From an uncultured Francisellaceae bacterium (GTDB taxonomy: Bacteria > Pseudomonadota > Gammaproteobacteria > Francisellales > CACEW01), in the NCBI GenBank assembly GCA_905612315.1, contig CAJQSL010000020.1:2341-66340 (forward strand): a stretch of DNA of 64,000 nucleotides, read 5' to 3'. Below are positions 27,119 through 57,327 of the stretch, piece by piece. Made by a program: the position numbers and the translations under genes. The notes below the pieces were generated by a model. That model did not search any database, was not told where the DNA came from, and worked only from the letters and a program-made list of their open reading frames with translations. The stretch's first letter is position 1, and each line of letters opens with the position of its first letter.

Positions 27119-27142
27119 CAAATTGTTTTTATGGTTTAAATT

Positions 27143-28000: not shown

Positions 28001-28017
28001 TTGAGAGTTTTTTTATT

Positions 28018-28874: not shown

Positions 28875-28937
28875 TTTAGGTGCTGGATTTTGCCTTGGGT
28901 TAGTGTTATTGTTTAAATCTTATTTTAGTGAGTGTAG

Positions 28938-29255
<318 letters not shown>

Positions 29256-31274: not shown

Positions 31275-31348
31275 GTCAAGGACTAGTTTTACATTTGACT
31301 TATTAAGAGTTATGTTGGAAAAATTATATAATAGGAATAGAGGGTTAG

Positions 31349-33484: not shown

Positions 33485-33508
33485 CAAATTGTTTTTATGG
33501 TTTAAATT

Positions 33509-34366: not shown

Positions 34367-34383
34367 TTGAGAGTTTTTTTATT

Positions 34384-34845
34384 ATGATAATTATAGCTCA
34401 TAGAGGTAATATTAATGGTATAAATAGTACCAATCATAATGTGGCTAAAATTTGGGATGCAATTGAAGATGGATTTTATGTAGAACTAGATCTTTGGTGT
34501 ATTAAAAACAATTATTATCTAGGGCATGACAAACCTGAGGTACAAATTCAGCTGACAGATTTTGATCACCCTCAAGTTTTTTTTCACCTTAAGAATCTTT
34601 TTCTACCAAAGTTAAAATTTGCAGATGCTTTTGCTATTAATAATGATGATTATGTGTTTACGCTGCGTGATAAATTATGGTGCAATTATAAAGTGGGGTA
34701 TTCGAATGATTCTATCATATGTGCTCCTGAGCTTGTTGGATCTACCGATAATTTGGATGATTTCATAAATGGTCATCGGGGAGCGTTTGGTATATGTACA
34801 GATTATGGCATGAAAGTAAGAAATATTCTTAGTAGCCTAGTATGA
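34384..34845 (+). CDS. Short GDPD-like protein (copy 2)
   Basis: Translation identical to 28018..28479. Confidence 0.5.
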   Translation: MIIIAHRGNINGINSTNHNVAKIWDAIEDGFYVELDLWCIKNNYYLGHDKPEVQIQLTDFDHPQVFFHLKNLFLPKLKFADAFAINNDDYVFTLRDKLWCNYKVGYSNDSIICAPELVGSTDNLDDFINGHRGAFGICTDYGMKVRNILSSLV

Positions 34846-35240
34846 TATTATATAAGCAATATAAATCTATATTTTTTCAGTTATGTCGTTTTGGAATTGT
34901 TGGCGTAAGTGCAGTAATTATAAATTTATTAATTGTGATTTTTATTGTAGAGACATTTGATTGGCCGCCATTATTGGCAAATATTATTGGATTTATTGTT
35001 GCTTGTCAGGTTGCTTTCTTGGGTCATAATTTATGGACTTTTAAAATGGATACCGACGCAAGTAACTCTTGGTTGAAGTTTGTGATGGTTGCGACTTTTA
35101 GTTTGGGTTTAACTCAATTATTGTTTTTTATTTTACTGCAAGTTTTCGCTTTATATTATGTTTTTGCTTTAATTCTGACTCAAATGCTAGTTCCTATTGT
35201 GACATTTTTATTGAGTAAATACTGGGCTTTTAGGCATTGA
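34842..35240 (+). CDS. GtrA-family membrane protein (copy 2)
   Basis: Translation identical to 28476..28874. Confidence 0.75.
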   Translation: MILYKQYKSIFFQLCRFGIVGVSAVIINLLIVIFIVETFDWPPLLANIIGFIVACQVAFLGHNLWTFKMDTDASNSWLKFVMVATFSLGLTQLLFFILLQVFALYYVFALILTQMLVPIVTFLLSKYWAFRH

Positions 35241-35303
35241 TTTAGGTGCTGGATTTTGCCTTGGGTTAGTGTTATTGTTTAAATCTTATTTTAGTGAGTG
35301 TAG

Positions 35304-36407
<1,104 letters not shown>

Positions 36408-37612: not shown

Positions 37613-38143
37613 ATGCTAAAAAAATATATATCTTCAAACAAAAAAATATATTTGAGAGAGATCTTAGATATAGATGTCACGCAAAAGTATGTAGATTGGC
37701 TTAATGATAAAGAAATAAATCAATATTTGGAAGCTAGGTTTATTAAGCACTCTTTAGATACAGCTAAACAATATATTAAAGCTATGTATGAATCTTCTGA
37801 CAATAAAATTTTTGGTATTTTTGATAATGATACTAATCAGCATATTGGAAATATTAAACTAGGAGGTGTTGATTTTTTTCATCGTCGGGCACATTTAGGC
37901 ATTATGATCGGGGATAAAAATTATTGGGGTCAAGGAATTGCTACTGAGGCTATTAAAATTATTTCTAGAATTGCTAAAAATGAACTTAATCTAAATAAGT
38001 TGTATGCTGGGGCTTATTCTGTAAATTTAGGCAGCATTAATGCTTTTGTTAAGGCGGGTTGGGAGCAAGAGGGTGTTCAAAAAAAATATAGCAAATTAAA
38101 TGAGTTGTTTGTAGATAACATTATTATGGGGAAAACTCTGTGA
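37613..38143 (+). CDS. GNAT-family N-acetyltransferase (candidate PseH)
   Basis: 176 aa. GNAT motif A region YWGQGIATEAIKIISRIA. Located inside the pse cluster. Confidence 0.6.
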   Translation: MLKKYISSNKKIYLREILDIDVTQKYVDWLNDKEINQYLEARFIKHSLDTAKQYIKAMYESSDNKIFGIFDNDTNQHIGNIKLGGVDFFHRRAHLGIMIGDKNYWGQGIATEAIKIISRIAKNELNLNKLYAGAYSVNLGSINAFVKAGWEQEGVQKKYSKLNELFVDNIIMGKTL

Positions 38144-39024
38144 CTATAGTTTTAGGGTCAGCCCAATTTGGACTAAATTATGGGGTCACAAACTCTTCGG
38201 GAAAAGTATCATTAGAGAAGGTTTGTGGTATTTTAGATCTGGCTTATCAAAATAATATTGAGACAATAGATACGTCTACTCAATATGGAAACTCTGAAAA
38301 AATAATAGGCCTGGCTAGTCAAAAGATTAATAAAAAATTTAATATAGTTACCAAAACTAGATCATTTGCAAATACAAGTATTAAACAAACATTAAATTAT
38401 TTAGATTCAGATTTTGAAAATTCTATTAATAACTTAAAAGATAATAATATAAAGGCATTATTATTTCATAACAGCCATGATTTGCTAGAAAATAGAGCAG
38501 ATCATTTATATAAATCAGCTTTAAATTTAAAAAGTAATAATTCTCAATTAAAAATAGGTGTAAGTGTTTATTCTCCAAATGAGTTATTAACTATTATGGA
38601 TAGATACCCAATTGAGATTGTGCAATTTCCTTTAAATATTTTTGACCAAAGGTTTATTCCATTATTAGATATATTAAAAAATAAAAATATTGAGATTCAT
38701 ACTAGAAGCGCATTTTTGCAAGGAATTTTATTGCAAGATATTGAGAATAATGCATTGCCAGATTTTTTTAGTAAATTTATAAATTATTTTAATAGATATA
38801 GACAAAATATTTCTAAATCTGGGTGCACTAAATTGCGAGCTTGTATTGATTTCGCTAAGAATTATAGTAATAACTTAGTTTTGGGAGTTTTAGATTGTCA
38901 GCAGCTGCAAGAAATTATCTCAATTTATAACCAAGATGATAGCCAAGAGGGCTTAAGTGATTTATTTAAAGAGTTTACTAAAATGCCTTTAGCCTTAATT
39001 GATCCAAGGGGGTGGCCGCAATGA
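38140..39024 (+). CDS. Aldo/keto reductase family oxidoreductase
   Basis: 294 aa. Contains LGSAQFGLNYGV, IDTSTQYGNSE and the spacing typical of the AKR barrel. Confidence 0.6.
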   Translation: MTIVLGSAQFGLNYGVTNSSGKVSLEKVCGILDLAYQNNIETIDTSTQYGNSEKIIGLASQKINKKFNIVTKTRSFANTSIKQTLNYLDSDFENSINNLKDNNIKALLFHNSHDLLENRADHLYKSALNLKSNNSQLKIGVSVYSPNELLTIMDRYPIEIVQFPLNIFDQRFIPLLDILKNKNIEIHTRSAFLQGILLQDIENNALPDFFSKFINYFNRYRQNISKSGCTKLRACIDFAKNYSNNLVLGVLDCQQLQEIISIYNQDDSQEGLSDLFKEFTKMPLALIDPRGWPQ

Positions 39025-39800
39025 TATTAGCTATACTTCAAGCTCGTTTCAATTCGACTAGATTACCAGGAAAGGTTTTAAAAAAAGTTAGAGCCAAAAC
39101 ATTATTAGAAATTCAAGTTTCTAGGCTTAATAAGTCTCATTATATTGACAAACTAGTTATTGCAACGAGTGAAGATATTTTAGATGATGCTATTGCAAAT
39201 ATGTGTTTTGATAATAATATTGAGTGCTTTAGGGGTAGTCTAGATGATGTTTTAGATAGATATTATCAATGCGCCAAGCAATATAACCCTACGCATGTTG
39301 TTAGGGTTACTGGTGATTGTCCTATTATAGATACTGAGGTTGTTGATCAGGTAATTAAGTCTCATTTAGATTCGCAAGCTGACTATACTTCTAATGCTTT
39401 AAAGCCTACATTTCCTGATGGCTTAGATATAGAAATTATGCAATATAATGTTCTATGCGAGATCTGGAGAAAATCGACTTTATTTTCCGAAAAAGAGCAT
39501 GTAACTCAGTATATTTATAATAATAAAAATTGCTTTAAATTAAATAGCTATACAAATAAAACAGATTACTCTGGGTTGAGGTGGACTGTAGATAACCCTG
39601 AAGATTTTAAAGTTGTGAGTTATATAATAGAAGAGCTATATTTTGAGAATCCTGATTTTAGTTGGAAAGAAGTATTGAGGCTATATGATAGCGAAAAACA
39701 TAAAAACATACTTAGCGAGAATATGGATTTTAAACGTAACAGCGGCATGCAAAGTTCAATTTTAAAAGATTTAGAGTTTAGTGAAAAGGTTGGTAATTAG
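39012..39800 (+). CDS. Cytidylyltransferase of the SpsF/acylneuraminate cytidylyltransferase family (candidate CMP-pseudaminate synthase PseF)
   Basis: 262 aa. Starts ILAILQARFNSTRLPGKVLKKV, then VVRVTGDCPIID. Confidence 0.65.
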   Translation: MAAMILAILQARFNSTRLPGKVLKKVRAKTLLEIQVSRLNKSHYIDKLVIATSEDILDDAIANMCFDNNIECFRGSLDDVLDRYYQCAKQYNPTHVVRVTGDCPIIDTEVVDQVIKSHLDSQADYTSNALKPTFPDGLDIEIMQYNVLCEIWRKSTLFSEKEHVTQYIYNNKNCFKLNSYTNKTDYSGLRWTVDNPEDFKVVSYIIEELYFENPDFSWKEVLRLYDSEKHKNILSENMDFKRNSGMQSSILKDLEFSEKVGN

Positions 39801-41105
39801 GTGAATATTATTAGTAATAGATATCAAAAATCTGAAGCTTTATTAAAGAGTGCTTTAGAGGTTATACCTTTGGGCAGTCAAACTTTTAGTAAGAGCTATA
39901 CTCAGTTTCCGCATGGAGTTTCTCCTTATTTTATTGATAGAGGGAAAGGGGCTTATGTTTGGGATGTTGATGGAAATAAATATTTAGATTTGGTTAATGG
40001 CTTAGCATCTGTATCTTTAGGGTACTGCGATGAACAAGTAGATAATGCTGTAAAAAAACAGATAGACAAAGGAGTTACTTTTTCTTTAGCAACAGAGTTA
40101 GAGCAAAAATTGGCCAGAAAATTAATTGAGCATATTCCAAGCGCACAAATGGTTCGTTTTGGTAAAAATGGCACTGATGCTACAAGTGGCGCTATTAGAG
40201 TTGCTAGGGCAGTTACTGGTAAGGATCATGTTTTGGTGTGTGGCTATCATGGCTGGCAAGATTGGTACATTGGGTCTACTACTAAAAATTTAGGTGTACC
40301 TGAGGCTACTAAGGAGTTAGCGCATCACTTTAAATATAATAATTTAGATAGCTTAGATGAGTTATTAAATAAATATAAAGATAATGTTGCTGCTGTTATT
40401 ATGGAACCGATGAACGTTGAGTTTCCTAAAGATAATTTTTTAGAAAATTGTAAAAAACTTGCGCATGATAATAACGCTTTGTTTATTTTTGATGAAACTG
40501 TAACTGGGTTTAGGTTTTCACTTGGGGGCGCGCAGAAACATTTTGGAGTCACTCCAGATTTAGCAACTTTTGGAAAAGGTATGGGTAATGGCTATCCAAT
40601 TAGTGCATTAGTTGGCAAAAAAGAATATATGCAAATAATGGAAGATGTGTTTCTTTCATCTACTTTTGGCGGTGAGTCGGTTTCTATTGCAGCTTCATTA
40701 GCAGTAATAAAAAAATTAGAGCAAACCAATGGCATTACACATATTCATAATATAGGAGAGCAAATTATAGAAAAAACCAAAAAGCTTATTGCTGCATATA
40801 ATTTGGATGATATTATTTCTGTACACGGACATCCTTGCTGGTCATTTTTAGTTATTAAAGATTATGCAAATTATTCTTCATGGGATATTAAAACTTTATT
40901 TATGCAGGAGTGTTTGCAGCGTGGGTTATTAACATTTTGTACGCATAATATTAGTTATGCCTATAGTCAAAATGAGGTTGATTATATTGAAAATATTTAT
41001 AGTGATGTTTTTCCTATTATAAAAAGTGCTATTGATAATAATAAACTTTACGATAGTTTATTGTGTGAGCCATTAAAGCAATTATTCAAGGTTCGTGAAA
41101 TATGA
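39801..41105 (+). CDS. Class III PLP aminotransferase (glutamate-1-semialdehyde 2,1-aminomutase-like)
   Basis: 434 aa with a GTG start. Contains FGKNGTDATSGAIRVARAVTG, IFDETVTGFRFSLGGAQ and TFGKGMGNGYP (PLP lysine). Confidence 0.75.
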   Translation: MNIISNRYQKSEALLKSALEVIPLGSQTFSKSYTQFPHGVSPYFIDRGKGAYVWDVDGNKYLDLVNGLASVSLGYCDEQVDNAVKKQIDKGVTFSLATELEQKLARKLIEHIPSAQMVRFGKNGTDATSGAIRVARAVTGKDHVLVCGYHGWQDWYIGSTTKNLGVPEATKELAHHFKYNNLDSLDELLNKYKDNVAAVIMEPMNVEFPKDNFLENCKKLAHDNNALFIFDETVTGFRFSLGGAQKHFGVTPDLATFGKGMGNGYPISALVGKKEYMQIMEDVFLSSTFGGESVSIAASLAVIKKLEQTNGITHIHNIGEQIIEKTKKLIAAYNLDDIISVHGHPCWSFLVIKDYANYSSWDIKTLFMQECLQRGLLTFCTHNISYAYSQNEVDYIENIYSDVFPIIKSAIDNNKLYDSLLCEPLKQLFKVREI

Positions 41106-42205
41106 GTATGAATATAATTATTCGTACTGATGCATCAAATATGATTGGCACTGGTCATGTTATGCGCTGTTTAACACTAGCTGAAAAATTAACTCAGAAT
41201 TATCAGGCAAAAATAACTTTTATATGTAGAGACTTACCAGGAAATTTATCAGAAGTTATAAAATTTAAAGGTTTCGGATTTAAGTTGTTAGCATTTTCGC
41301 CAGAGAATAAAGGACAATATTCCAAAACTCCTCCCAATGATGATTATGATAAATGGTTAGGAGTTAGATTAGAAGATGATGCCAAAGAAACTTTAGAAAA
41401 TGTTTTAGAATTTAATGAGAAAATAGATTTATTGATTATTGATCATTATGCATTAGATATTAAGTGGGAAAAAGTATTAAGATCAAAAGTTGAAAAAATA
41501 ATGGTTATAGATGATTTGGCTAATAGAAAGCATGATTGTGATATCATTTTAGATCATAATTTTTATTTAAATTTCGAATCCAGATACGATAAGTTAGTGC
41601 CACAAAGTTGTAAAAAGTTATTGGGATCAAAGCATGCTTTGATAAACTCCAAATTAAAACAAGTTAAAGAAAATAGGTCCCGAGCCGGCAAGGGGAATAA
41701 ACTTAATAAGGTGGAAACTGTTTTAGTATTTTTAGGCGGTGCAGATCCTAAAAACTTTACAGCTTTAGCTTTGGAACAGGCATTAAATTCTGAGCAGTTA
41801 AAAGATTGTATATTTAATGTTGTTTTAGGTAAAAATAACCCACATAAATTAGCACTAAAACAAAAATATGCGAAATATGATAATGTAGTATTTCATGTAC
41901 AGCCGAGTTATTATTACGGGTTATTAGCAAGGGCGGATTTGGCCATAGGTGCTGGTGGAGTATCCCAGCTTGAGAGGTGTTATGTTCAGTTGCCATCGAT
42001 TGTTATCCCTGCTGCTGATAATCAAAGAGAACTTGTAGAAAAGTTTGTAAGGGAAAAGTATATAATTAGTTCAAATAAACTCTTGCATCCAGTGGTCTTT
42101 GAAGTGGGAACTTGCTTGCGCTTTTTGGAGGTTGAGTTACTTCACTGCTATTCTATTTTTTCATCTAATAGGTGTCATAAAAATATTTCTATAAATTTGG
42201 AATAA
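41102..42205 (+). CDS. pseG: UDP-2,4-diacetamido-2,4,6-trideoxy-beta-L-altropyranose hydrolase
   Basis: 367 aa. Starts IIIRTDASNMIGTGHVMRCLTLAEKL, typical of PseG, with a GT-B-like fold and the GAGGVSQLERCYVQLP region. Confidence 0.7.
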   Translation: MSMNIIIRTDASNMIGTGHVMRCLTLAEKLTQNYQAKITFICRDLPGNLSEVIKFKGFGFKLLAFSPENKGQYSKTPPNDDYDKWLGVRLEDDAKETLENVLEFNEKIDLLIIDHYALDIKWEKVLRSKVEKIMVIDDLANRKHDCDIILDHNFYLNFESRYDKLVPQSCKKLLGSKHALINSKLKQVKENRSRAGKGNKLNKVETVLVFLGGADPKNFTALALEQALNSEQLKDCIFNVVLGKNNPHKLALKQKYAKYDNVVFHVQPSYYYGLLARADLAIGAGGVSQLERCYVQLPSIVIPAADNQRELVEKFVREKYIISSNKLLHPVVFEVGTCLRFLEVELLHCYSIFSSNRCHKNISINLE

Positions 42206-42234
42206 CTTTTTGCAACAGGACCATTATGTGTTAA

Positions 42235-43014
42235 TTAGGTATATGGATTCTTTTCAAGAAGTGCGTATTTATTATTTTTTAACATATCCATACCTGTATC
42301 AAATACGCCATTTATTTCGCAAACACAAACTGGTAATTTATCATCTATCATCATTGTCCTCATGCATCCATTTTTTATTGATTGATAATACAATGCTAAG
42401 TTATCAGTTCTTATATCCAAGTCATAATTTCTAACATTATATAAAAATGTATCTTCGATTCTCTTATCTTCATTAATTATCGCACCGGGAAATTTTTTTA
42501 TATATCTATAATCGACTTTAAAATACTGCTCTAGATAATGTAAAAATGTGGAAGGAGGACTGCCTGGATTTACAATAGGAAGATTTAAAAATAACCCTTT
42601 AGCTCTCATTTTTAATAATCTATCGAATATACTATCCTTACCAAATGCATCTGTAGAGATATTGTTTGTGATATCTTTGGCATGCTTGCCAATTGCAACA
42701 AAAGAAAAAATAGGGTGCAAAGATCTAAAGCTATCTTTATGATTAAGCATAAAGTTTGAGAAATAACCAACTACTGACATGGTTTTCTTAGAATCAAAAA
42801 TACCGGTTTGACAGAAGCTATAGGTAAAGCTAGGAACGATTAGTGTCCCATCTCTTCCAATGACACTGAAAATTGATTCCAATATATTGCTACAATGCTG
42901 CTTTAACTTTATATTATTATCACGGCATATGTCGGTATCTACATGCATTAAAACGACATCGTTTTTTTTAATTCCTAGTTCTGTGATTGCACTAATAATT
43001 TTCTTAATAATCAT
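42235..43014 (-). CDS. AAC(3)/YokD-family N-acyltransferase
   Basis: 259 aa. Contains ELGIKKNDVVLMHVDTD ... GTLIVPSFTYSF, as in the aminoglycoside 3-N-acetyltransferase family. Confidence 0.65.
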   Translation of the reverse strand: MIIKKIISAITELGIKKNDVVLMHVDTDICRDNNIKLKQHCSNILESIFSVIGRDGTLIVPSFTYSFCQTGIFDSKKTMSVVGYFSNFMLNHKDSFRSLHPIFSFVAIGKHAKDITNNISTDAFGKDSIFDRLLKMRAKGLFLNLPIVNPGSPPSTFLHYLEQYFKVDYRYIKKFPGAIINEDKRIEDTFLYNVRNYDLDIRTDNLALYYQSIKNGCMRTMMIDDKLPVCVCEINGVFDTGMDMLKNNKYALLEKNPYT

Positions 43015-43070
43015 TTTGTATAAACTCCATTAAGTTACAATAATAACTGATAAAACTAAAAGTAAGCTTG

Positions 43071-45491
43071 TTAAGCATAACACCATCGAATTAATTTTTC
43101 AGTTGGAAAACTATCATCCCAAGGGAGAGTAAAGTCAGCCATATGTCCAATTGGAGCAATTCGCGATACTCCTTTTTGTAAAAATAATTTTGCTATTTTA
43201 TCCCTTCTAAAACTTTTCAATTCTAATCCCACAACTTGATTGTCTGAAGATAGTAGATCTGCTATTTGCGATAAATCTTCTATTTCATGGACAAATATAG
43301 TTCTTCCATATACGGGATCATTTAATTTTACTTCTTTATCAAAGAATATTGTCCATTTCATATTGGTTGATGTAATAATGTTCTGAATTTTTTTATTTTG
43401 ATAAGCGCATAATCTTGCTGATTTGATTTTGTCAAAAGCATTAAAATCCTTTTGGTTACCAATAATTTGTATTGATATTTCTTCCATTCTGTTTTTTAAA
43501 AGAGACAAAAATGTTTCCGTAGATATTTTAGCTCCTTTCTCAATAAAAACATTATGAGAAGATGCGCATGCTTTCTGGTCAAAAATTGAACAATCAATAG
43601 CAATTGACCTTGCTATTCTATTTACTTTTCTTTCCAGTTCCATAGACTCTCTACCAATTGCACTCAACGATAACTTTGGTCCAAAGACTATATCTTCAGC
43701 ATTATATTTTTTAGGAAAATTAACAATTGATTCTACAGCTTCTTTTCCGCCCCAAGCTACTCTTACATCAGATATTTTTGATAAAGATTTATTATTTTCA
43801 GAATTTCTATCAACATATAATAAACAAATAGCATCAGTAATGTCTTTGCCTTTAATCTTCTTACCATTTAAAGTTTTTACATCAATCTCTGATATTATAT
43901 TTAACATTTTTTGCAAAACAGCCAAAGAATTTTTAGATATTTTTATAATATTGGCATTTTTACAGATAATTGAAATTAGAATAGATATGATTCCAAGCGT
44001 TGGAACATTACCAGCAACCCAGTGAGTTACAATCCCTCTTGGTAAGGCGATTAACTTTTTGTTATATTCAGTATTAAAAATAAATTCGTCTAGATGATGT
44101 TTTGAACCTCTCAAAGATAGATTAAGGTTTTGCTCAAAACTTCCTGATAGGATCCAATTTATGATAAAATCCATTCCCGCATATTTATATTCTATTAAAT
44201 CTGAATCAGCGCTCCAGATTTTTGCGGCCTTTTTAAATATACCGATAATTTCATCTGTTGATAATTTTGCTAATTTTTGTTGAGCAGTGTTTAGTTGAAG
44301 TTCAATTAGTTGCCAATTATCTATATGAGTGAATGTTTTTTTACTTTCAAAATAGTACAAAATTGCTTGTTCTTTATTTTCAATGAAGCTATTTTTTTCT
44401 AAAATTTTTGTAGCAATAACATCTCCACAACCTCTAATTTCTGCAGATTTTGCCCTGCCGATAACTTTAAAATAAGTACCTTTTCTACCGCATTTACAAT
44501 CGTCATTGCCTGTAATTTGTATTAAATCATCAGTGATGAGGGAAAACCCAGTATATGACCTAGGAACAAGGGATAAAAATTGTCCAACTCCAGTTTGGCC
44601 ATCTGGTAGAATATCATAGGAGTAAGGATTTCTAACTATTAAATGTGCGTGGTCTGGCACATGTTTAAATCCATATCTACATTCTGGATAAATAGTTCCC
44701 ATCTGCTCGGTAAAACCATAAATATCTATTATATTTTCTGGTTTTAGTTTAAAAACTTCACAAGTATCTTCTATAAATTTTTCCCTACTAACCTGCTGAT
44801 CAGCAAGTTTTTTCCATCCGCCTATATGAATTAGATAACTGTTTTCTGGAAGCGTTAAAGTAATATTGTTTTGTTTACAAAACTTAATTAAATATATATA
44901 AACCAGAAAGGTGAAACCGCATAATATTAATGGGTTTTTATTTTCACTGATTATGTCTTTAATTTTTTGAATATTTGCTTTATAAGAATTATCGCTATTT
45001 TCTAAAATAAAATCTGACTTAGTGGCAAAATTGGTAAAACCACCAATTGCGCCATGTCTCGCGCTGATATCAAAAGAATTAGTTTGCGGCGGAACATCAC
45101 ATATTAAAAAATGTCTTCTTTCTTTTCCAATAAAATTGGAAAGACTTGCTATCAAAGAGAATACTTGTCTTTTTGAGGTTTCGTTATCAATGTTAATGAC
45201 AGATGGCACTCCTGAGGTCGAGGAGGAAAGTAAAGATCTATGAATTTTTTTTGAACTAGTAAAACTTTTACCATTTTCTTTGAAGTATTGTACCGGAAGG
45301 AAGGGTGCTTTATCTAGAGAAGTAAAAAAATCTTGGTTTTGATATTCATTATCGATAATTTTTTTATATAAACTATTATTTTGGTAGTGATATAAGTGCT
45401 CTTCTTTAATATATGGCAATAATAACTCTTTTTTTTCTGATAATTTCAGAGTAAATGCTGAGGATTTTATATATTCAATTACTGGTTTCAT
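43071..45491 (-). CDS. Fusion of LuxE-like acyl-protein synthetase (N-terminal) and LuxC-like acyl-CoA/acyl-protein reductase (C-terminal)
   Basis: 806 aa. The N-terminal half has the LuxE-type LLPYIKEEHLYHYQNNSLYKKI. The C-terminal half has the LuxC signatures THWVAGNVPTLGIISILISIICKNANIIKISKNS and a candidate catalytic Cys in FDQKACASSHNVF. Confidence 0.65.
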   Translation of the reverse strand: MKPVIEYIKSSAFTLKLSEKKELLLPYIKEEHLYHYQNNSLYKKIIDNEYQNQDFFTSLDKAPFLPVQYFKENGKSFTSSKKIHRSLLSSSTSGVPSVINIDNETSKRQVFSLIASLSNFIGKERRHFLICDVPPQTNSFDISARHGAIGGFTNFATKSDFILENSDNSYKANIQKIKDIISENKNPLILCGFTFLVYIYLIKFCKQNNITLTLPENSYLIHIGGWKKLADQQVSREKFIEDTCEVFKLKPENIIDIYGFTEQMGTIYPECRYGFKHVPDHAHLIVRNPYSYDILPDGQTGVGQFLSLVPRSYTGFSLITDDLIQITGNDDCKCGRKGTYFKVIGRAKSAEIRGCGDVIATKILEKNSFIENKEQAILYYFESKKTFTHIDNWQLIELQLNTAQQKLAKLSTDEIIGIFKKAAKIWSADSDLIEYKYAGMDFIINWILSGSFEQNLNLSLRGSKHHLDEFIFNTEYNKKLIALPRGIVTHWVAGNVPTLGIISILISIICKNANIIKISKNSLAVLQKMLNIISEIDVKTLNGKKIKGKDITDAICLLYVDRNSENNKSLSKISDVRVAWGGKEAVESIVNFPKKYNAEDIVFGPKLSLSAIGRESMELERKVNRIARSIAIDCSIFDQKACASSHNVFIEKGAKISTETFLSLLKNRMEEISIQIIGNQKDFNAFDKIKSARLCAYQNKKIQNIITSTNMKWTIFFDKEVKLNDPVYGRTIFVHEIEDLSQIADLLSSDNQVVGLELKSFRRDKIAKLFLQKGVSRIAPIGHMADFTLPWDDSFPTEKLIRWCYA

Positions 45492-45492
45492 G

Positions 45493-46626
45493 TTAATAAG
45501 CTGCTTTAAGAATTTTCATAAAATCATCAGTGGTTAAGTCTTCAGGAAAGAATCGTGATAAGGTATCATTTTGTGCCAAATAAGCATATTTGGGGAAATC
45601 ATTAACATTTAGTTGTGTAAAACCTGATATTTTGTTTTTAATACCAATTGCTGGCAAAATTTCTTCATAAATTTCTGAAATAATATAGTCCAAATTTTTA
45701 TAACCTATTTTTAAAGCAAGGTCATTATACTTTTCTTTCAAGTTAGAATTTTTTTTGCTATGAGTTTTAATCACCTCGGGCAATAAAAGTCCAGTAGCCA
45801 CGCCATGAGGTATTGATGGAATATTATGAGCTAAAGCATGAGCGGGGCCAACAACATTTATATTTTGGACAATGCCAGCAAAATAAGCTCCAATTAGGGC
45901 CGGGTTTGCATAATCTTTATGGTTATTTTTTAGTTTTTGAAAAGCATTTAACAAATTTTGCAAAGCATGACAAACTAAATTGCCAGCCATGATGTTTTGC
46001 ATTTTACTTACGTAACCCTCTAGGCAATGAGATAGAGCATCCAGCATAGATGGAATTAGAATCTTTAGCGGTATGTTTTGTAATAAATTTGCATCTAAAA
46101 TTGCCAGGTCAGGTAAAAAATCGTGTGTAACAACAGGTATTTTCTTCAGTCCATCCTCACTTGTAATAATGGCACTAGAACTTGTCTCACTTCCTGTGCC
46201 GGCAGTAGTTGGTACCGCAACAAATCTAGCTTTTTTACGAAGGGGCGGCAAAGAAAATGGTATACTTAAGCGCTCATTATCAAAATTAGGATTTTCATAT
46301 AATGCCCAAGCTATTTTTGCTCCATCAATTACTGAGCCTCCTCCAATTGCAACAATCCAGTCTGGATTAAAATCTAGCAATTGACCAACACTTTCTTTAA
46401 TCTTTGATAGTTTCGGCTCTCCATGCCATTTCGGATTGAAGACTTTGCATTCAAATCTTTTTTTATTAGCAGTAATTTTGCTAATAGTTTCATATTCATC
46501 GCAACTTCTTTTAGTTGCAAAAATAGCAATTTTTCTGGCGGGTATTCTGGCGAGATAGGATAATCCTCCTTCTTGACATAAGGTTTGTTTGGCAGATATC
46601 AAAGTTGAGGTTGATAAATTTAACAT
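45493..46626 (-). CDS. Iron-containing alcohol dehydrogenase
   Basis: 377 aa. Has GGGSVIDGAK, TTAGTGSETS and His-rich metal-site regions (LSHCLEGY, AHALAHN). Confidence 0.8.
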   Translation of the reverse strand: MLNLSTSTLISAKQTLCQEGGLSYLARIPARKIAIFATKRSCDEYETISKITANKKRFECKVFNPKWHGEPKLSKIKESVGQLLDFNPDWIVAIGGGSVIDGAKIAWALYENPNFDNERLSIPFSLPPLRKKARFVAVPTTAGTGSETSSSAIITSEDGLKKIPVVTHDFLPDLAILDANLLQNIPLKILIPSMLDALSHCLEGYVSKMQNIMAGNLVCHALQNLLNAFQKLKNNHKDYANPALIGAYFAGIVQNINVVGPAHALAHNIPSIPHGVATGLLLPEVIKTHSKKNSNLKEKYNDLALKIGYKNLDYIISEIYEEILPAIGIKNKISGFTQLNVNDFPKYAYLAQNDTLSRFFPEDLTTDDFMKILKAAY

Positions 46627-48083
46627 TATATTCCTTGGATTATTTTCTTTACTTCAGAAGTTAGTGTTTTCCCAGTTTCTGATCTGGGAATGAAGTTAGC
46701 AAACATTATTTTTTTAGGGATGGCAAAATTTTCTAGATATTTTCTCAGTTCATTGATGATGAAATTCTCAGAAACGTTTTCTTGTCTTACAATCAAAGCC
46801 ATAGGAGCCTCTCCTAGAATTTTATCTTCTAAAGATATTACAGCAGTATCTATAATACCTTTAACTTTTAATAATGCAGCCTTTATTTCTTCAGAGGAAA
46901 TTTTTAAACCGCCAATATTAATTAGATCTTTTTTTCTACCATTAATAAATAAATACCCTGCTTTATCTATATATCCCAAATCGCCAGTTTTGAAATAATC
47001 ATTTTCAATATTGTTTGCTTTTTCATTCCAATATCCTGCAAATAGGTGATTACCACCTATACATATTTCACCATCAATAATTTTAACTTTGACATCTTGT
47101 GAGGTTGGTTTCCCAACGGATTTATAATATTCTTTTTTTTGGTCAGATAGAGTGATAAAAAATGAACGAGATGCTTCAGTTAGGCCATAATAAAACATTA
47201 TTCTAAGACCAGGGCAGTTGGTAATTAAGTCTTTAGTTATCTCTTCCGGTAGTTTTTCTGTATTAATAACAATATAATCTAGTTTACGGAGGGTGGAAAT
47301 TGTTTTATTTCTAAATCTTTCATTTAAAAGGATTTTGAGCATTGACGGGGTAAGTGCTGTGGCGTTGTAATTTTTATTAAAAGCTGCAAAAAATTTTTTT
47401 AAAGATTTAATTCCATCCGTAATATATACAGTGCCTCCACCTGAATGGGTACAATAAACATGACCTAGACCAAAATTATGATATATGGGTAAAGGGATAA
47501 CTTCTTTGTTATTTTGTGTGTAACCAATATAATTTTTAATATTATTCAATGCCTGGTTGACACAAGCGTGAGTTAATTTTACCCCTTTAGGTTTCCCAGT
47601 AGAGCCAGTAGTAAACATTATAGCAACCAGCTCCTGGGGATTAATATTAAATTCTTTTCTGGCTATAAATTTTTGACTAAATGGCGACAGAATATGAGCT
47701 AACTCATTATATTTACTAATTTTAATAATTTCTAAGTTTATAACTTTATCTAGATCTTTATCCGTGAAAAGTATTTTTGCCTTTAACTCACTTGAAAAAT
47801 ATATTGCTCTGTCTTGTTTTAAATCATTAGAAATTGGAACTGAAATGGCTCCTAAAAGAATAGTTGCATAGTGCAATACAATTTGTTGTGCAGAGTTTCC
47901 AAGGGCATTAATAATAATATCTTGTTTTTTTATTCCTTTATATGACAAAAATTGGGTTGCTGCATATACAATGTTTGCTAGTTTATCATAAGTAAAACTT
48001 TCTTCTTTATCTTGTAGAGCAATATTCTGGGCGCAACCCTCATTCAAGGCTTTTTTGAATATAGTAGCAATGAAGTTGTTCAT
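46626..48083 (-). CDS. AMP-dependent synthetase/ligase (adenylate-forming enzyme)
   Basis: 485 aa. Has the MFTTGSTGKPKGVKLTH AMP-binding motif, YGLTE, TGDLGYID and GRKKDLINIGG. Confidence 0.85.
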   Translation of the reverse strand: MNNFIATIFKKALNEGCAQNIALQDKEESFTYDKLANIVYAATQFLSYKGIKKQDIIINALGNSAQQIVLHYATILLGAISVPISNDLKQDRAIYFSSELKAKILFTDKDLDKVINLEIIKISKYNELAHILSPFSQKFIARKEFNINPQELVAIMFTTGSTGKPKGVKLTHACVNQALNNIKNYIGYTQNNKEVIPLPIYHNFGLGHVYCTHSGGGTVYITDGIKSLKKFFAAFNKNYNATALTPSMLKILLNERFRNKTISTLRKLDYIVINTEKLPEEITKDLITNCPGLRIMFYYGLTEASRSFFITLSDQKKEYYKSVGKPTSQDVKVKIIDGEICIGGNHLFAGYWNEKANNIENDYFKTGDLGYIDKAGYLFINGRKKDLINIGGLKISSEEIKAALLKVKGIIDTAVISLEDKILGEAPMALIVRQENVSENFIINELRKYLENFAIPKKIMFANFIPRSETGKTLTSEVKKIIQGI

Positions 48084-48304
48084 GCTTTCTCTTTTAGGAT
48101 TTCAACTATGTCACCAAATGTTTCCATTTCTAAAACTTCATCTATATCTAACCTAACCTCAAAATCTTTTTCTAAGGCAAGGATCAAGTTTTGATGTGCT
48201 AAAGAGTCCCACTCTGGGATATCACCTGGACCTAAGTCTTCTGTTATAATAGATGGGTTGATTTTTAAAGATTCTGCAATTGTTTTTTTTATTTTTTCTT
48301 TCAT
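48080..48304 (-). CDS. Acyl carrier protein
   Basis: 74 aa. Has the DSL phosphopantetheine attachment context (IPEWDSLAHQNLILALE). The stop overlaps the ligase start (ATGA). Confidence 0.8.
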   Translation of the reverse strand: MKEKIKKTIAESLKINPSIITEDLGPGDIPEWDSLAHQNLILALEKDFEVRLDIDEVLEMETFGDIVEILKEKA

Positions 48305-48560
48305 GATTTAAAATTAATTCCGATTTTTTAGTATTCAATAATTTTAACGTTCAGCCAATCAAATAACAAGTTATAGATCGATTCTGTCAAACCAAATTAA
48401 AAATGAGGAGCGTCAAGCTTTTTTGGAGAAAAAATTTGAGCACACTTTAGTATTAATAATTTTGAATACTATTTTTTACAAGTCTTTAGTTTAAATTTGT
48501 ATGCCTTGAGTATGATAATTTTTATTATTACAATACCTTTTTCTTCATGGTAAGATCAGC

Positions 48561-49637
48561 GTGAGCGAATTAATATTAGATAAAATGGCGGTAAATATGA
48601 AGATACTAGATGTTTCTAAAATTAATAAACCTTTTATCATTGCTGAAATGTCAGGCAATCATAATCAGTCTTTAGATAGAGCATTAAAAATTGTAGAAGA
48701 GGCGGCAAAAGCTGGTGCCGATGCGATAAAATTGCAAACTTATACCGCTGACACCATGACTTTAAATATTGATAAAGATGAATTTAAAGTAACAGATAAA
48801 GATAGCTTATGGTATGGCAGGCATTTATATGAGCTGTACGAAGAAGCTCATACTCCTTGGGAGTGGCACAAACCTATTTTTGATAAAGCCAAAGAGTTAG
48901 GTATTATGGCTTTTAGTACTCCTTTTGATCATACAGCGGTAGATTTTCTAGAAGACTTAAATGTACCATTTTATAAAATAGCATCGTTTGAGAATACTGA
49001 TGTTAATTTAATTCGTAAAGTTGCAAGCACTGGTAAGCCAGTTATTATATCTACTGGTATGGCTAGTTTAGAAGATCTGCAATTAATGGTAAATACTATT
49101 AGAGATGCGGGTTGTGAAAACTTTGTAATGTTAAAATGCACTAGTGCATATCCTGCCTCTGCGTTAGATGCAAATATAAGAACAATTCCACATATGTCCC
49201 AAATGTTTGATTGTCCTGTTGGGATATCAGATCATACAATGGGTATTGGAGTACCAATTGCAGCTGTAGCTTTAGGAGCTATGGTAATTGAAAAGCATTT
49301 CTGTTTATCTCGTGCAGAAGGTGGGGTTGATTCTGCTTTTTCTTTAGAGCCACATGAACTTAAATTATTAGTTGAAGAGACAAACAGAGCCTATCAAGCG
49401 CTTGGGAAAGTAAAATATCAAACATCAGCTATCGAAGAAAAAAGCAAGCAGCATAGACGTTCTATTTATTTTGTAAAAGATATGAAAGCTGGGGATATGA
49501 TTACTGAGAACTGCCTAAGATGTATTCGGCCTGGATTCGGATTGCCTCCTAAATATTGGGATAAGCTGATTAACTCTCTAGTTAAAGTAGATGTTTCATT
49601 AGGAACTCCGGCATCCTTAAATTTAGTTCTCGAGTGA
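48561..49637 (+). CDS. pseI: Pseudaminic acid synthase
   Basis: 358 aa. Contains FIIAEMSGNHNQSLDRALKIVEEAAKAGADAIKLQTYTADTMT and a C-terminal SAF domain. Close in pattern to Campylobacter PseI. The start is uncertain (GTG at 48561 or a nearby ATG). Confidence 0.8.
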   Translation: MSELILDKMAVNMKILDVSKINKPFIIAEMSGNHNQSLDRALKIVEEAAKAGADAIKLQTYTADTMTLNIDKDEFKVTDKDSLWYGRHLYELYEEAHTPWEWHKPIFDKAKELGIMAFSTPFDHTAVDFLEDLNVPFYKIASFENTDVNLIRKVASTGKPVIISTGMASLEDLQLMVNTIRDAGCENFVMLKCTSAYPASALDANIRTIPHMSQMFDCPVGISDHTMGIGVPIAAVALGAMVIEKHFCLSRAEGGVDSAFSLEPHELKLLVEETNRAYQALGKVKYQTSAIEEKSKQHRRSIYFVKDMKAGDMITENCLRCIRPGFGLPPKYWDKLINSLVKVDVSLGTPASLNLVLE

Positions 49638-55643: not shown

Positions 55644-56228
55644 ATGCAGCAATCAAAAAATTTATACCTCAGGTTAGTTAAGGAATCTGATGCTAACTTT
55701 ATATTGTCATTAAGGTTAAATAAGAACCTTAATTCTTATTTAACCCCGGTTAATGATAATGTGGATGAGCAAATTAAGTGGATTAAAAAATACAAATTAA
55801 AAGAGTTAGAGGGTTTAGAATATTATTTTATTATTATGGACAAAACCCTAGGTGCGATTGGTTTAGTAAGAATTTATGATATAGATTACGCTCAAAAGGC
55901 TTTTACCTGGGGAAGTTGGGTTTTAAAAGAAGATAGACCGAAATATGCGGCCATAGAGAGTGCCATGCTTTCTTATGAGTTTGCTTTTAATGAACTGGGT
56001 TTATTCATAGCCAATTTTAATGTTATGAAGGAAAACGGTAGGGCAATAAATTTCTATAAACATTTTGGTGCTAATTATTTGTTCTCAGATGATATTAATC
56101 ATTATTTTGAGTTGACAAAAAAAACATACCTTTCATTGAAGTATAACAAATACTATAAGTTTTTATTAAATTGTATTGACAACAATCAGAATAATGCATT
56201 GGAGGTTTTAAAAGAGTATTATGATTAA
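55644..56228 (+). CDS. GNAT-family N-acetyltransferase
   Basis: 194 aa. Starts [20 protein letters not shown], with a GNAT core. Immediately upstream of a DegT aminotransferase (overlapping by 8 nt). Confidence 0.6.
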
Positions 56229-57327
56229 ATTTCTAGATTTAAGCAAATCTTACATAGAGTTACAGTCTCAATTTGATGATGCTTATCGAAGGGTGATGAA
56301 TTCAGGTTGGTACCTCTTGGGCGATGAGTTGAAGTGTTTTGAAAGTGAGTTTGCGACGTATTGCGGAACAGATTATTGTGTGGGTGTTGGAAATGGTCTT
56401 GAATCTTTAGAATTGCTGTTGAGAGCTTATAATATCGGAGAAGGTGACGAAGTCATTGTTCCCTCAAATACTTATATTGCGACTTGGTTAGCAGTTAGTG
56501 CTGTTGGGGCAACGGTAGTGCCTGTGGAGCCTGATATGCGAACTTATAATATAAACCCAAACTTGATTGAGGCTGCCATTACAAATAAGACCAAAGCTAT
56601 TATACCTGTCCATTTATACGGACAGTCTTGTGATATGGATCCTATTATGAATATTGCAAAGAAGTACAGTTTAGTAGTTATTGAAGATGCCGCACAAGCG
56701 CATGGAGCTCTTTATAAAAATCGCAAGGTTGGTTCTTTAGGACATTCTGCTGGCTTTAGCTTTTACCCTGGAAAAAATCTTGGTGCATTTGGTGATGCTG
56801 GTGGCATTACAACTAATGATAAGAATATCGCGGATAGAGTACGTGCTCTAAGAAACTATGGATCTGAAAAAAAGTATTATAATCAGGAAAAAGGCATGAA
56901 TTCGAGGTTGGATGAATTGCAAGCATCTTTTTTAAGAGTGAAATTATCTATGCTTGATGTATGGAATCAACGTCGTCAAGAAATAGCTAATCAATATATA
57001 AAGAGCTTATCTGGCGTCTCAGGTATTATTCTTCCCACAGTATTAGAAAGGGCTGCTCCAGTTTGGCATTTGTTTGTGATTCGAACATTTTCTCGTGGCA
57101 GGCTACAAGATTATTTAAAAAATAGCGGTATTCAGACCTTAATTCATTACCCAATACCGCCACATAAGCAGCAAGCTTATAGTGAAATGCACCATTTAAC
57201 TTATCTTAAGTCCGAAGAGCTCCATCAATCTATCCTTAGTTTGCCTATGGGGCCCCATTTGTGTGAAACAGACATAGGTAAGGTTACAGATGTTATCTTG
57301 GAGGCGGAAACTTTACAATACCTATAA
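56221..57327 (+). CDS. DegT/DnrJ/EryC1-family NDP-4-keto(or 3-keto)-6-deoxyhexose aminotransferase
   Basis: 368 aa. Contains [42 protein letters not shown] and [15 protein letters not shown] (PLP lysine). Confidence 0.8.

What the first reader, a model, noticed from the sequence alone, without database searches (positions are those of the whole stretch)
43071..45491. LuxE-LuxC fused into one 806-aa protein next to an Fe-ADH, with a class III aminotransferase nearby
In bioluminescence systems LuxE (synthetase) and LuxC (reductase) are separate subunits that channel an acyl group to an aldehyde. Here both halves are in one ORF:
- The N-terminal half has the LuxE-type LLPYIKEEHLYHYQNN.
- The C-terminal half has the LuxC-type HWVAGNVPTLG and a Cys in FDQKACASSH.

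The aldehyde product could be reduced by the adjacent Fe-ADH. It could instead be transaminated by the glutamate-1-semialdehyde aminomutase-like enzyme at 39801..41105, a family that handles aldehyde/amine pairs. That gives an acid-to-aldehyde-to-alcohol or acid-to-aldehyde-to-amine branch for a sugar substituent.
Basis: partly seen in the sequence, partly recalled or inferred. Interest (0 to 1): 0.6.

Follow-up and report, generated by a model that had tools for sequence, protein, structure and literature searches.

The report
RfbN-type fused carboxylic acid reductase
The fused LuxE-LuxC gene is real and looks catalytically intact, but it belongs to the long-known RfbN/WbeN family that Vibrio cholerae O1 is proposed to use to build the hydroxy-acid decoration of its O antigen. 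Here the same gene cassette sits inside a pseudaminic-acid sugar cluster of an uncultured marine bacterium.

Summary
**Verdict: a real feature, and a new member of a known kind.**

- **The gene.** The 806-aa ORF lies on the minus strand. It has an N-terminal LuxE domain and a C-terminal LuxC domain. The LuxE adenylation residues (K227, R346) and both acyl-accepting cysteines (C355, C642) are invariant in 119 homologues.
- **The operon.** It is gene 4 of a tightly packed five-gene operon: acyl carrier protein (ACP), AMP-ligase, Fe-ADH, LuxE-LuxC, AAC(3)-like acyltransferase.
- **The known relative.** The first four genes are colinear and homologous with wbeK-L-M-N (rfbKLMN) of V. cholerae O1. 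That locus was fetched and identified here. The fusion is 34% identical over its full length (E 2e-176).
- **How common.** At least 225 species across many phyla carry the fusion. In 45 of the 80 best loci the ACP-ligase-Fe-ADH genes sit directly upstream.
- **Likely role.** It reduces the distal carboxylate of a short acid to an aldehyde, and Fe-ADH reduces that to an alcohol. The hydroxyacyl group is then carried on ACP and N-linked to a pseudaminic-acid (Pse) precursor.
- **What differs here.** The transferase has an AAC(3) fold, not the hexapeptide fold of WbeO, and the host cluster makes Pse.
- **The amine branch.** That gene belongs to a separate conserved block (aldo-keto reductase (AKR), cytidylyltransferase, aminotransferase, PseG) that occurs in genomes without the fusion.
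- **Earlier reports.** This scan reached the same verdict on other DNA (e1-2043446, e1-2410326, e1-2410325).

The parts
48080..48304 (-). Acyl carrier protein, 74 aa, with a DSL phosphopantetheine-attachment motif. First gene of the operon and homologue of V. cholerae WbeK/RfbK.
   Evidence: ORF and sequence. Pfam PP-binding, E 2.9e-5. 52% identical to the 80-aa ACP of the V. cholerae O1 locus. Its stop overlaps the ligase start (ATGA).
46626..48083 (-). AMP-forming acyl ligase, 485 aa. Homologue of WbeL/RfbL and the proposed loader of the acid onto the ACP.
   Evidence: Pfam AMP-binding E 1.1e-51 plus AMP-binding_C. 26% identical over 492 columns to WbeL, E 1.3e-39. PMC12208996 describes RfbL as activating 2,4-dihydroxybutanoic acid onto CoA or RfbK.
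45493..46626 (-). Iron-containing alcohol dehydrogenase, 377 aa. Homologue of WbeM/RfbM and the proposed aldehyde to alcohol step.
   Evidence: Pfam Fe-ADH E 1.4e-31 plus ADH_Fe_C E 1.3e-22. 38% identical to WbeM, E 1.8e-69. A homologue lies directly upstream of the fusion in 52 of 80 related loci.
43071..45491 (-). LuxE-LuxC fusion, 806 aa (P0001). RfbN/WbeN-type carboxylate reductase.
   Evidence: Pfam LuxE and LuxC. 34% identical over 813 columns to V. cholerae O1 WbeN, E 2e-176. AlphaFold2 model with mean pLDDT 92.5 and pTM 0.87.
44403..45467 (-). LuxE (acyl-protein synthetase, PaaK-like adenylating) domain, residues 9-363. Contains K227 (codon 44811-44813), R346 (44454-44456) and the acyl-accepting C355 (44427-44429).
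   Evidence: The alignment to PDB 7xc6 chain E puts K227, R346 and C355 on LuxE K238, R355 and C364 (residue roles from PMC9157457). All three are invariant in 119 sequences. Codons checked.
44274..44402 (-). Inter-domain linker, about residues 364-406. This is the only low-confidence stretch of the model.
   Evidence: Ten-residue block means of pLDDT are 77, 63 and 77 for residues 351-380, and pLDDT is below 50 at 369-371.
43083..44273 (-). LuxC (ALDH-fold acyl-thioester reductase) domain, residues 407-803. The catalytic C642 is encoded by codon 43566-43568.
   Evidence: FDQKAC(642)ASS aligns with YDQQACFST of PDB 7xc6 chain A. C642 is invariant. The best fold match is 7xc6_A, E 4e-23, TM 0.69 by target.
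42235..43014 (-). AAC(3)-like (Antibiotic_NAT) acyltransferase, 259 aa. Last gene of the operon and the proposed N-acyltransferase. It is not homologous to the hexapeptide transferase WbeO.
   Evidence: Pfam PF02522, E 4.8e-25. No significant match to WbeO, which is a Hexapep protein. The same family follows the fusion in the closest marine relatives L093, L096-98 and L102, at 36-47% identity.

Best explanation
The ORF is an RfbN/WbeN-family enzyme: an ATP- and NADPH-dependent carboxylate reductase in a single chain.

**Inferred mechanism**, by homology with the LuxC-LuxE complex:
1. The LuxE domain adenylates a carboxylate (K227/R346).
2. It captures the acyl group as a thioester on C355, which lies just before the flexible inter-domain linker.
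3. The acyl group passes to C642 of the ALDH-fold LuxC domain.
4. NADPH releases it as an aldehyde.
5. The co-translated Fe-ADH reduces the aldehyde to an alcohol.
6. The AMP-ligase and the ACP carry the resulting omega-hydroxy acid as an acyl-ACP. Alternatively, they tether a dicarboxylic acid first, so that the reduction happens on the carrier.
7. The AAC(3)-fold transferase moves the acyl group onto an amino group of a pseudaminic-acid (Pse) precursor made by the flanking pseB/C/G/I genes.

**Likely acyl group.** A short hydroxy acid of the kind made in V. cholerae O1, where it is (S)-2,4-dihydroxybutanoyl ('tetronate'). That compound corresponds chemically to L-malate with its C4 carboxyl reduced. 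A relative such as 4-hydroxybutanoyl (from succinate) is also possible.

**Shown here:** the family membership, the conserved catalytic residues, and the cassette synteny and its distribution.

**Inferred:** the substrate, the order of steps, the acceptor, and which amine is acylated.
For: - **Domains and residues.** Both domains are present. The catalytic residues align to the solved LuxC-LuxE complex and are invariant.
- **Identity of the comparison locus.** L092 is the V. cholerae O1 wbe region. Its gene lengths match PMC9915646: manC 1398 nt, manB 1392, gmd 1122, wbeM 1125, wbeN 2478. WbeL is 471 aa with an A8 tract at nt 108, as in PMC3441752.
- **Homology to that locus.** The window's ACP, ligase, Fe-ADH and fusion are colinear with it, at 52%, 26%, 38% and 34% identity.
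- **Genetics in V. cholerae.** Loss of wbeL abolishes the O1 antigen. Phage-resistant isolates carry wbeN or wbeM mutations. RfbL is described as activating 2,4-dihydroxybutanoic acid onto CoA or RfbK.
- **Conservation.** In the 80 best of 225 species loci, a ligase lies upstream on the same strand in 74, an ACP in 71, and an adjacent Fe-ADH in 52.
- **Variable last gene.** The gene after the fusion is usually a transferase of varying family: KASIII-like, hexapeptide, GNAT or AAC(3). That fits a common donor module with lineage-specific acceptors.
- **Chemical precedent.** Hydroxyacyl N-substituents occur in marine bacteria. Examples are 5-N-lactoyl Pse, and 4-hydroxybutanoyl on an amino sugar in a title cited by PMC7281560.
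- **Not a lux system.** No LuxD homologue was found in the genome, which is 90% complete.
Against: - No biochemical reconstitution of any RfbKLMNO-type cassette turned up in the paper library. Even the reference pathway rests on a sequence-based proposal plus genetics.
- The ligase is only 26% identical to WbeL, and the transferase is unrelated to WbeO. The acid and the acceptor may therefore differ from those of V. cholerae.
- The window also has a PseH-like GNAT (37613..38143), so it is unclear which amine is left free for the special acyl group.
- A second amino-sugar cassette (DegT at 56221..57327) could be the acceptor instead.
- The organism is uncultured, so no glycan structure exists.
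Confidence: 0.65

Rival explanations
1. Amine branch. The aldehyde made by the fusion is transaminated by the class III (GSA-aminomutase-like) enzyme at 39801..41105. This would give an omega-amino acyl group, for example 4-amino-2-hydroxybutanoyl, for the sugar.
For: - The aminotransferase is about 2 kb away.
- In one related marine lineage (L096-98), a 46%-identical homologue lies in the same-strand run of genes, two genes upstream of the ACP.
- Its solved relatives include sugar C-6' aldehyde aminotransferases.
Against: - It is on the opposite strand, in the pse operon.
- No homologue lies within 10 kb of the fusion in any of 80 loci.
- It belongs to a conserved AKR - CTP_transf_3 - aminotransferase - PseG block, seen in 7 loci of 6 genomes.
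- The five of those genomes that were tested, all about 100% complete, show no fusion at E <= 1e-10.
- The Fe-ADH is translationally coupled to the fusion, which argues for the alcohol route.
Confidence: 0.07
2. Lipid reading. As in bioluminescence, the fusion reduces a long-chain fatty acid to a fatty aldehyde or alcohol, and the glycan carries a lipid ('liposugar'). This was suggested for LuxC/LuxE homologues in Aeromonas and enterobacterial flagellin glycosylation islands.
For: - PMC7874193 and PMC4875605 interpret ACP, ligase, LuxE and LuxC genes next to pse genes as fatty-acid enzymes.
- NCBIfam's nearest named models are the long-chain LuxC and LuxE models.
Against: - Scores are far below the equivalog cut-offs: 108 bits against 750 for LuxC, and 103 against 550 for LuxE.
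- The only family member tied to a known product (V. cholerae O1) is linked to a C4 dihydroxy acid.
- No LuxD homologue was found in the genome, and no FabG or FabZ is among the genes annotated around the cassette.
- In one relative a lactate/malate dehydrogenase gene follows the fusion (L071), which points to small hydroxy acids.
Confidence: 0.08
3. Reverse or transfer-only reading. The Fe-ADH and the LuxC domain run oxidatively (alcohol to aldehyde to enzyme thioester), and the LuxE domain serves mainly as an acyl-transfer arm to the ACP. The cassette would then activate an alcohol or aldehyde rather than reduce an acid.
For: - ALDH-fold thioester chemistry is reversible in principle.
- UniRef labels a relative 'LuxE/PaaK family acyltransferase'.
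- A separate AMP-ligase is already present for adenylation.
Against: - The LuxE adenylation residues K227 and R346 are invariant in 119 sequences, which argues that ATP chemistry is retained.
- The known V. cholerae product carries a terminal alcohol, as expected from reduction.
Confidence: 0.08

Closest known systems
RfbN / WbeN (VC0251) of Vibrio cholerae O1, within rfbKLMNO = wbeK-O (VC0248-VC0252). This is the proposed 3-deoxy-L-glycero-tetronate (2,4-dihydroxybutanoyl) module (Morona et al. 1995, Gene 166:19, cited in PMC12208996).
   Same: - Same LuxE-N / LuxC-C fusion: 825 aa against 806 aa, 34% identical end to end, E 2e-176.
- Same upstream order ACP - AMP-ligase - Fe-ADH, and all three are homologous.
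- The same catalytic Lys, Arg and two Cys are conserved.
- Both lie in a surface-polysaccharide locus.
   Different: - The fifth gene is an AAC(3)-fold acyltransferase here, against the hexapeptide (LbH) WbeO in V. cholerae.
- The host pathway is pseudaminic acid here, against GDP-perosamine there.
- The ligase is only 26% identical, so the acid may differ.
LuxC-LuxE fatty acid reductase complex of luminous bacteria (Photobacterium phosphoreum, PDB 7xc6; PMC9157457)
   Same: - Same two folds.
- Same catalytic residues: LuxE K238, R355 and C364, and the catalytic LuxC Cys (C296 in the paper's numbering).
- Presumably the same adenylate to Cys thioester to Cys thioester to NADPH-reduction chemistry.
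   Different: - The lux proteins are separate subunits, encoded apart in luxCDABE.
- Their substrate is C14 fatty acid supplied by LuxD.
- Similarity is weak (E 4e-24 and 7e-15), and scores are far below the NCBIfam equivalog cut-offs.
- In the fusion the mobile Cys loop is internal and followed by a linker, not at a free C-terminus.
Split LuxE + LuxC genes with ACP and AMP-ligase in the flagellin glycosylation islands of Aeromonas (PMC7874193) and Enterobacteriaceae (PMC4875605). Similar split cassettes occur in three Vibrio genomes (L089-L091).
   Same: - Next to pse genes.
- Same gene order, ACP and/or ligase, then LuxE, then LuxC.
- The LuxE part is 34-35% identical to the window's LuxE domain.
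   Different: - Two separate genes.
- As described in those papers, these islands carry a 3-oxoacyl-ACP reductase (FabG) rather than an Fe-ADH.
- Function is equally untested.

Membership tests
RfbN/WbeN family (fused LuxE-LuxC of polysaccharide acyl-tailoring cassettes) | A single polypeptide with an N-terminal LuxE (PF04443) domain and a C-terminal LuxC (PF05893) domain | tested here: met
   Pfam gives residues 9-363 and 407-803, E 8.6e-66 and 3.8e-68. V. cholerae WbeN has the same architecture.
RfbN/WbeN family (fused LuxE-LuxC of polysaccharide acyl-tailoring cassettes) | Full-length sequence homology to V. cholerae O1 WbeN | tested here: met
   BLASTP gives 34% identity over 813 columns, covering residues 8-803, E 2e-176. 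The locus was identified as V. cholerae O1 by gene lengths and the wbeL A8 tract at nt 108 (with PMC3441752 and PMC9915646).
RfbN/WbeN family (fused LuxE-LuxC of polysaccharide acyl-tailoring cassettes) | Conserved adenylation Lys/Arg and two acyl-accepting cysteines | tested here: met
   K227, R346, C355 and C642 are invariant in a 119-sequence alignment that includes WbeN. They align to the functional residues of 7xc6.
RfbN/WbeN family (fused LuxE-LuxC of polysaccharide acyl-tailoring cassettes) | Operon context ACP - AMP-ligase - Fe-ADH directly upstream | tested here: met
   Seen in the window. Each gene is homologous to WbeK, WbeL or WbeM. The same arrangement occurs in 45 of 80 related loci.
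V. cholerae-type tetronate module (rfbKLMNO) in the strict sense | Hexapeptide-repeat acyltransferase (WbeO) as the fifth gene | tested here: not met
   The window's fifth gene is PF02522 Antibiotic_NAT. WbeO is Hexapep. The two show no significant similarity.
V. cholerae-type tetronate module (rfbKLMNO) in the strict sense | The product is 2,4-dihydroxybutanoyl amide-linked to perosamine | not testable with these tools
   No glycan chemistry is available. No perosamine synthase (a DegT/perosamine pair as in L092) lies next to the cassette. The flanking genes are pseB/C/G/I.
Bioluminescence fatty acid reductase (LuxC + LuxE, NCBIfam equivalogs NF052251 and NF052244) | Scores above the equivalog cut-offs; separate subunits; lux partners such as LuxD | tested here: not met
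   107.9 bits against a cut-off of 750, and 103 against 550. The protein is fused. No LuxD (PF02273) match was found in the 90%-complete genome.

The most novel reading that the evidence does not exclude
The AAC(3)-fold protein that ends this cassette, and the cassettes of its closest marine relatives, would be the first member of the aminoglycoside-acetyltransferase family shown to take an acyl-ACP donor. It would N-acylate a nonulosonic-acid precursor and give a pseudaminic acid with an omega-hydroxyacyl amide (for example 2,4-dihydroxybutanoyl or 4-hydroxybutanoyl). To my knowledge, unchecked, no Pse carrying a 2,4-dihydroxybutanoyl amide has been described. In the variant that uses the neighbouring class III aminotransferase, the group would be an amino-hydroxyacyl one reminiscent of the butirosin side chain.
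Probability: 0.3. Interest if true: 0.45.

Novelty: new member of a known kind. Interest (0 to 1): 0.25.

Why it matters
- The RfbKLMN-type module is a widespread cassette for decorating amino sugars of bacterial surfaces with short hydroxy acids. It occurs in at least 225 species, from Bacteroidales of the gut to marine Gammaproteobacteria.
- No reconstitution of it turned up in the paper library searched here. These decorations shape antigenicity and phage recognition, as in V. cholerae O1.
- This window adds one more host pathway (pseudaminic acid) and one more transferase family (AAC(3) fold) to the module.
- It also shows that the neighbouring class III aminotransferase belongs to a different conserved pse sub-module. 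That sub-module is uncharacterised as far as I know; no literature search was made for it.
- For the fusion itself, the result is a correction. It is a known architecture, not a discovery.

Tried and rejected
- **Amine branch through the class III aminotransferase.** Rejected on co-occurrence.
- **True lux system or long-chain fatty acid reductase.** Rejected on NCBIfam scores and the absence of LuxD.
- **Promoter and terminator scan of 41900-48700.** Matches were no more frequent than in shuffled sequence, so they say nothing about operon boundaries.
- **Named control genomes of the genome search.** They do not include V. cholerae. The O1 locus was reached instead through a search of the genus of Vibrio fortis (the genome behind L020), and recognised by published gene lengths and the wbeL A8 tract.
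- **PDB sequence search with the AAC(3)-like protein.** It gave only marginal hits (E about 4e-4) to aminoglycoside N3-acetyltransferases, so there is no functional lead.
- **Fold search of the whole model.** ALDH-fold hits dominated. It adds only that LuxC (7xc6_A) is the best structural match.
- **Model coordinates.** They are not returned, so Cys-to-Cys and Cys-to-Lys distances and the polarity of the pocket could not be measured.
- **Literature.** Searches found no in-vitro study of WbeN or WbeM, and no paper naming a 2,4-dihydroxybutanoyl or 4-hydroxybutanoyl pseudaminic acid. The original Gene 1995 paper is not in the library. Its content is taken from papers that cite it and from my own recollection.
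- **DUF4910/DUF2172 protein.** It accompanies the AAC(3)-like gene in three related marine lineages. It was sought in the window and not found.
Full report
**1. Observation**

The interval 43071..45491 holds one 806-aa ORF on the minus strand. Pfam finds LuxE over residues 9-363 (E 8.6e-66) and LuxC over 407-803 (E 3.8e-68).

**2. Catalytic residues**

A sequence search of the PDB finds only the two chains of the P. phosphoreum LuxC-LuxE complex, 7xc6. In those alignments:
- K227 in HIGGWK falls on LuxE K238.
- R346 falls on LuxE R355.
- C355 in EIRGCG falls on LuxE C364.
- C642 in FDQKACASS falls on the Cys of YDQQACFST in LuxC.

PMC9157457 names K238 and R355 as the adenylation/thioesterification pair. 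It names C364 as the acylated Cys on a mobile C-terminal motif, and the LuxC Cys as the catalytic one. The paper numbers that Cys 296. The deposited chain has 477 residues while the paper numbers residues up to 488, which fits an offset of about 11; this offset is my inference. All four residues are invariant in alignments of 12 and of 119 fused homologues, the larger one including V. cholerae WbeN.

**3. The operon**

The fusion is gene 4 of five minus-strand genes that overlap or nearly abut:

| Gene | Coordinates | Size and family |
|---|---|---|
| ACP | 48304..48080 | 74 aa, DSL motif, PP-binding |
| AMP-ligase | 48083..46626 | 485 aa |
| Fe-ADH | 46626..45493 | 377 aa |
| LuxE-LuxC | 45491..43071 | 806 aa |
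| AAC(3)-like acyltransferase | 43014..42235 | 259 aa, PF02522 |

The operon is inverted between plus-strand pse genes. Upstream are:
- pseB (35346)
- pseC (36410)
- a PseH-like GNAT (37613)
- an AKR (38140)
- a CTP_transf_3 cytidylyltransferase (39012)
- the class III aminotransferase (39801)
- pseG (41102; TIGR03590, 269 bits)

Downstream is pseI (48561; TIGR03586, 506 bits).

**4. Identification with the V. cholerae O1 cassette**

The gene order recalled rfbKLMNO of V. cholerae O1, so I tested the link.
[quoted passage not shown] Phage-resistant isolates carry mutations in these genes.
- PMC3441752 describes wbeL (VC0249, 471 aa) as required for tetronate synthesis, with an A8 tract at nt 108. 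Its deletion abolishes the O1 antigen.
- PMC12208996 describes RfbL as activating 2,4-dihydroxybutanoic acid onto CoA or the carrier RfbK, citing Morona et al. 1995.

A search of 251 genomes of the genus of Vibrio fortis found six with fused homologues. One, G127 (4.0 Mb), gave locus L092. Its ORF lengths reproduce the published ones: 1398, 1392, 1122, 1125 and 2478 nt, and 471 aa. Its wbeL carries A8 at nt 108. I take L092 to be the V. cholerae O1 wbe region.

Against L092:

| Window protein | Identity to V. cholerae homologue |
|---|---|
| ACP | 52% |
| Ligase | 26% (E 1e-39) |
| Fe-ADH | 38% (E 2e-69) |
| Fusion | 34% over 813 columns (E 2e-176) |

The gene order is the same. WbeN itself scores 694 and 462 bits on Pfam LuxE and LuxC. 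The fifth genes are unrelated: WbeO is a hexapeptide-repeat transferase, and the window has an AAC(3)-fold protein.

**5. Distribution**

- The large protein collection returned 178 hits, and all 120 listed carry both Pfam domains. All but two truncated entries are about 800-860 aa. Named sources include Reyranella, Formosa, Treponema parvum, Parabacteroides and Lachnospiraceae.
- A scan of one genome per species confirmed relatives in 225 stretches and returned 80 loci from many phyla.
- In those 80 loci, a ligase homologue lies upstream on the same strand in 74 and an ACP in 71. An Fe-ADH lies directly adjacent in 52. All three occur in 45.
- In 23 loci, mostly Bacteroidales, ACP and ligase are present without the Fe-ADH.
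- The gene after the fusion varies: KASIII-like (13), an unknown 355-aa protein (7), hexapeptide (5), GT2 (5), metallo-beta-lactamase fold (4), a second ligase (3), GNATs, and a lactate/malate dehydrogenase.
- The closest marine metagenomic relatives (60-64% and 45% identity) keep ACP - ligase - Fe-ADH - fusion - AAC(3)-like. They add a DUF4910/DUF2172 protein that the window lacks.
- Others at 41-46% identity carry a hexapeptide transferase, in one case followed by a DegT aminotransferase as in V. cholerae.
- Split LuxE and LuxC genes in the same order, with ACP or ligase, occur in three Vibrio genomes. They also occur in the flagellin glycosylation islands of Aeromonas and enterobacteria.
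- Association with a Pse synthase is not unique to this window. Four of the 80 loci have a PseI homologue of at least 40% identity nearby.

**6. Structure**

AlphaFold2 with the 119-sequence alignment gives mean pLDDT 92.5 and pTM 0.87. The only weak stretch is about residues 351-380, where ten-residue block means are 63-77 and pLDDT drops below 50 at 369-371. This is the linker just after C355. Foldseek's best match is LuxC of 7xc6 (E 4e-23), followed by ALDH-superfamily enzymes.

In the lux complex, the Cys-bearing C-terminal tail of LuxE must travel more than 30 Å between sites. In the fusion the same motif is internal, next to a flexible linker. That is compatible with the same swinging-arm mechanism, but this is inference.

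**7. The class III aminotransferase**

No homologue lies within 10 kb of the fusion in any of the 80 loci. A sample of 300 genomes of the same class gave 17 with a match at E <= 1e-60, G000 itself included. In 7 loci from 6 genomes the gene sits in the same block as here, AKR - CTP_transf_3 - aminotransferase - PseG. Five of those genomes, all about 100% complete, have no match to the fusion at E <= 1e-10. The same query does find its targets elsewhere.

The aminotransferase is therefore a component of a conserved pse sub-module, not a dedicated partner of the reductase. One related marine lineage (L096-98) does place a 46%-identical homologue two genes upstream of the ACP, together with a 46%-identical cytidylyltransferase. 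A link cannot be fully excluded, and I give the amine branch about 7%. None of these claims rests on the unpublished genome G290.

**8. Mechanism and its limits**

*Shown:* family membership, intact catalytic residues, cassette synteny, and the modular distribution with variable transferases.

*Inferred:*
- The fusion reduces a carboxylate to an aldehyde, and Fe-ADH reduces that to an alcohol.
- The ligase and ACP hold the acid as a thioester, before or after the reduction.
- The AAC(3)-fold enzyme N-acylates a Pse precursor.

The acyl group is unknown. By chemistry, (S)-2,4-dihydroxybutanoate is L-malate with C4 reduced, and 4-hydroxybutanoate is the same product from succinate. Hydroxyacyl amides are documented in marine bacteria: 5-N-lactoyl Pse in Psychrobacter, and 3-N-(4-hydroxybutanoyl) quinovosamine in Idiomarina, cited in PMC7281560. 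I found no in-vitro study of any member of the cassette.

**9. Verdict**

This is a genuine, probably active RfbN/WbeN-type fused carboxylate reductase in a wbeKLMN-like cassette. It is a new member of a known kind. What distinguishes it is the AAC(3)-fold transferase and the Pse host locus.

I reached this reading before consulting earlier notes on the family. Those notes (e1-2043446, e1-2410326, e1-2410325, on other genomes) agree with it. That prompted me to look for the small ACP ORF, which I then confirmed myself.

Noticed in passing
window 38140-42205 (+); also L104-L106, L115-L117, L121: AKR - CTP_transf_3 cytidylyltransferase - class III (GSA-aminomutase-like) aminotransferase - PseG is a conserved syntenic block. 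It occurs in 7 loci of 6 other genomes of the same class; the five of those genomes that were tested lack the LuxE-LuxC fusion. The cytidylyltransferase does not match the NCBIfam PseF model, and the genome has no PseF-model match above cut-off. This block may therefore hold a non-canonical CMP-Pse synthetase plus two extra, unexplained tailoring steps.
   Followed up: partly
window 24949-29034 and 31315-35400 (+): Two copies of a stretch of about 4.1 kb are 99.9% identical (4086 aligned bases). Each holds an unknown 711-aa protein, a GT2, a 153-aa ORF and a GtrA-like protein. The match ran to the end of the stretch I compared, so the repeat may extend further. It could be a recent tandem duplication or an assembly artefact.
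   Followed up: partly
L093 13249-14538; L096 5697-7055; L102 6229-7515: In the closest marine relatives, a DUF4910/DUF2172/HTH_47 (aminopeptidase-like) protein accompanies the AAC(3)-like transferase next to the cassette. No homologue is in the window. It could be a deacylase that frees an amine for re-acylation.
   Followed up: partly
L071 12376-13350; L075 3082-4020; 23 of the 80 loci in all: A variant cassette, mostly in Bacteroidales, lacks the Fe-ADH (ACP - ligase - fusion only). In L071 the fusion is followed by a lactate/malate dehydrogenase gene, and the downstream ORF of L075 clusters with it. This hints at 2-hydroxy-acid substrates.
   Followed up: no
window 37613-38143 (+): The PseH-like GNAT scores only 40 bits against the PseH model, whose cut-off is 93. 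It is unclear whether it acetylates the PseC product, or whether the AAC(3)-like enzyme takes that role with the special acyl group.
   Followed up: no
L089, L090, L091 (three genomes of the same genus as Vibrio fortis): Split LuxE and LuxC genes, adjacent and in the same order as the domains of the fusion, lie with an ACP or AMP-ligase gene beside them. The LuxE part is 34-35% identical to the window's LuxE domain. That is much closer than the bioluminescence LuxE is.
   Followed up: partly
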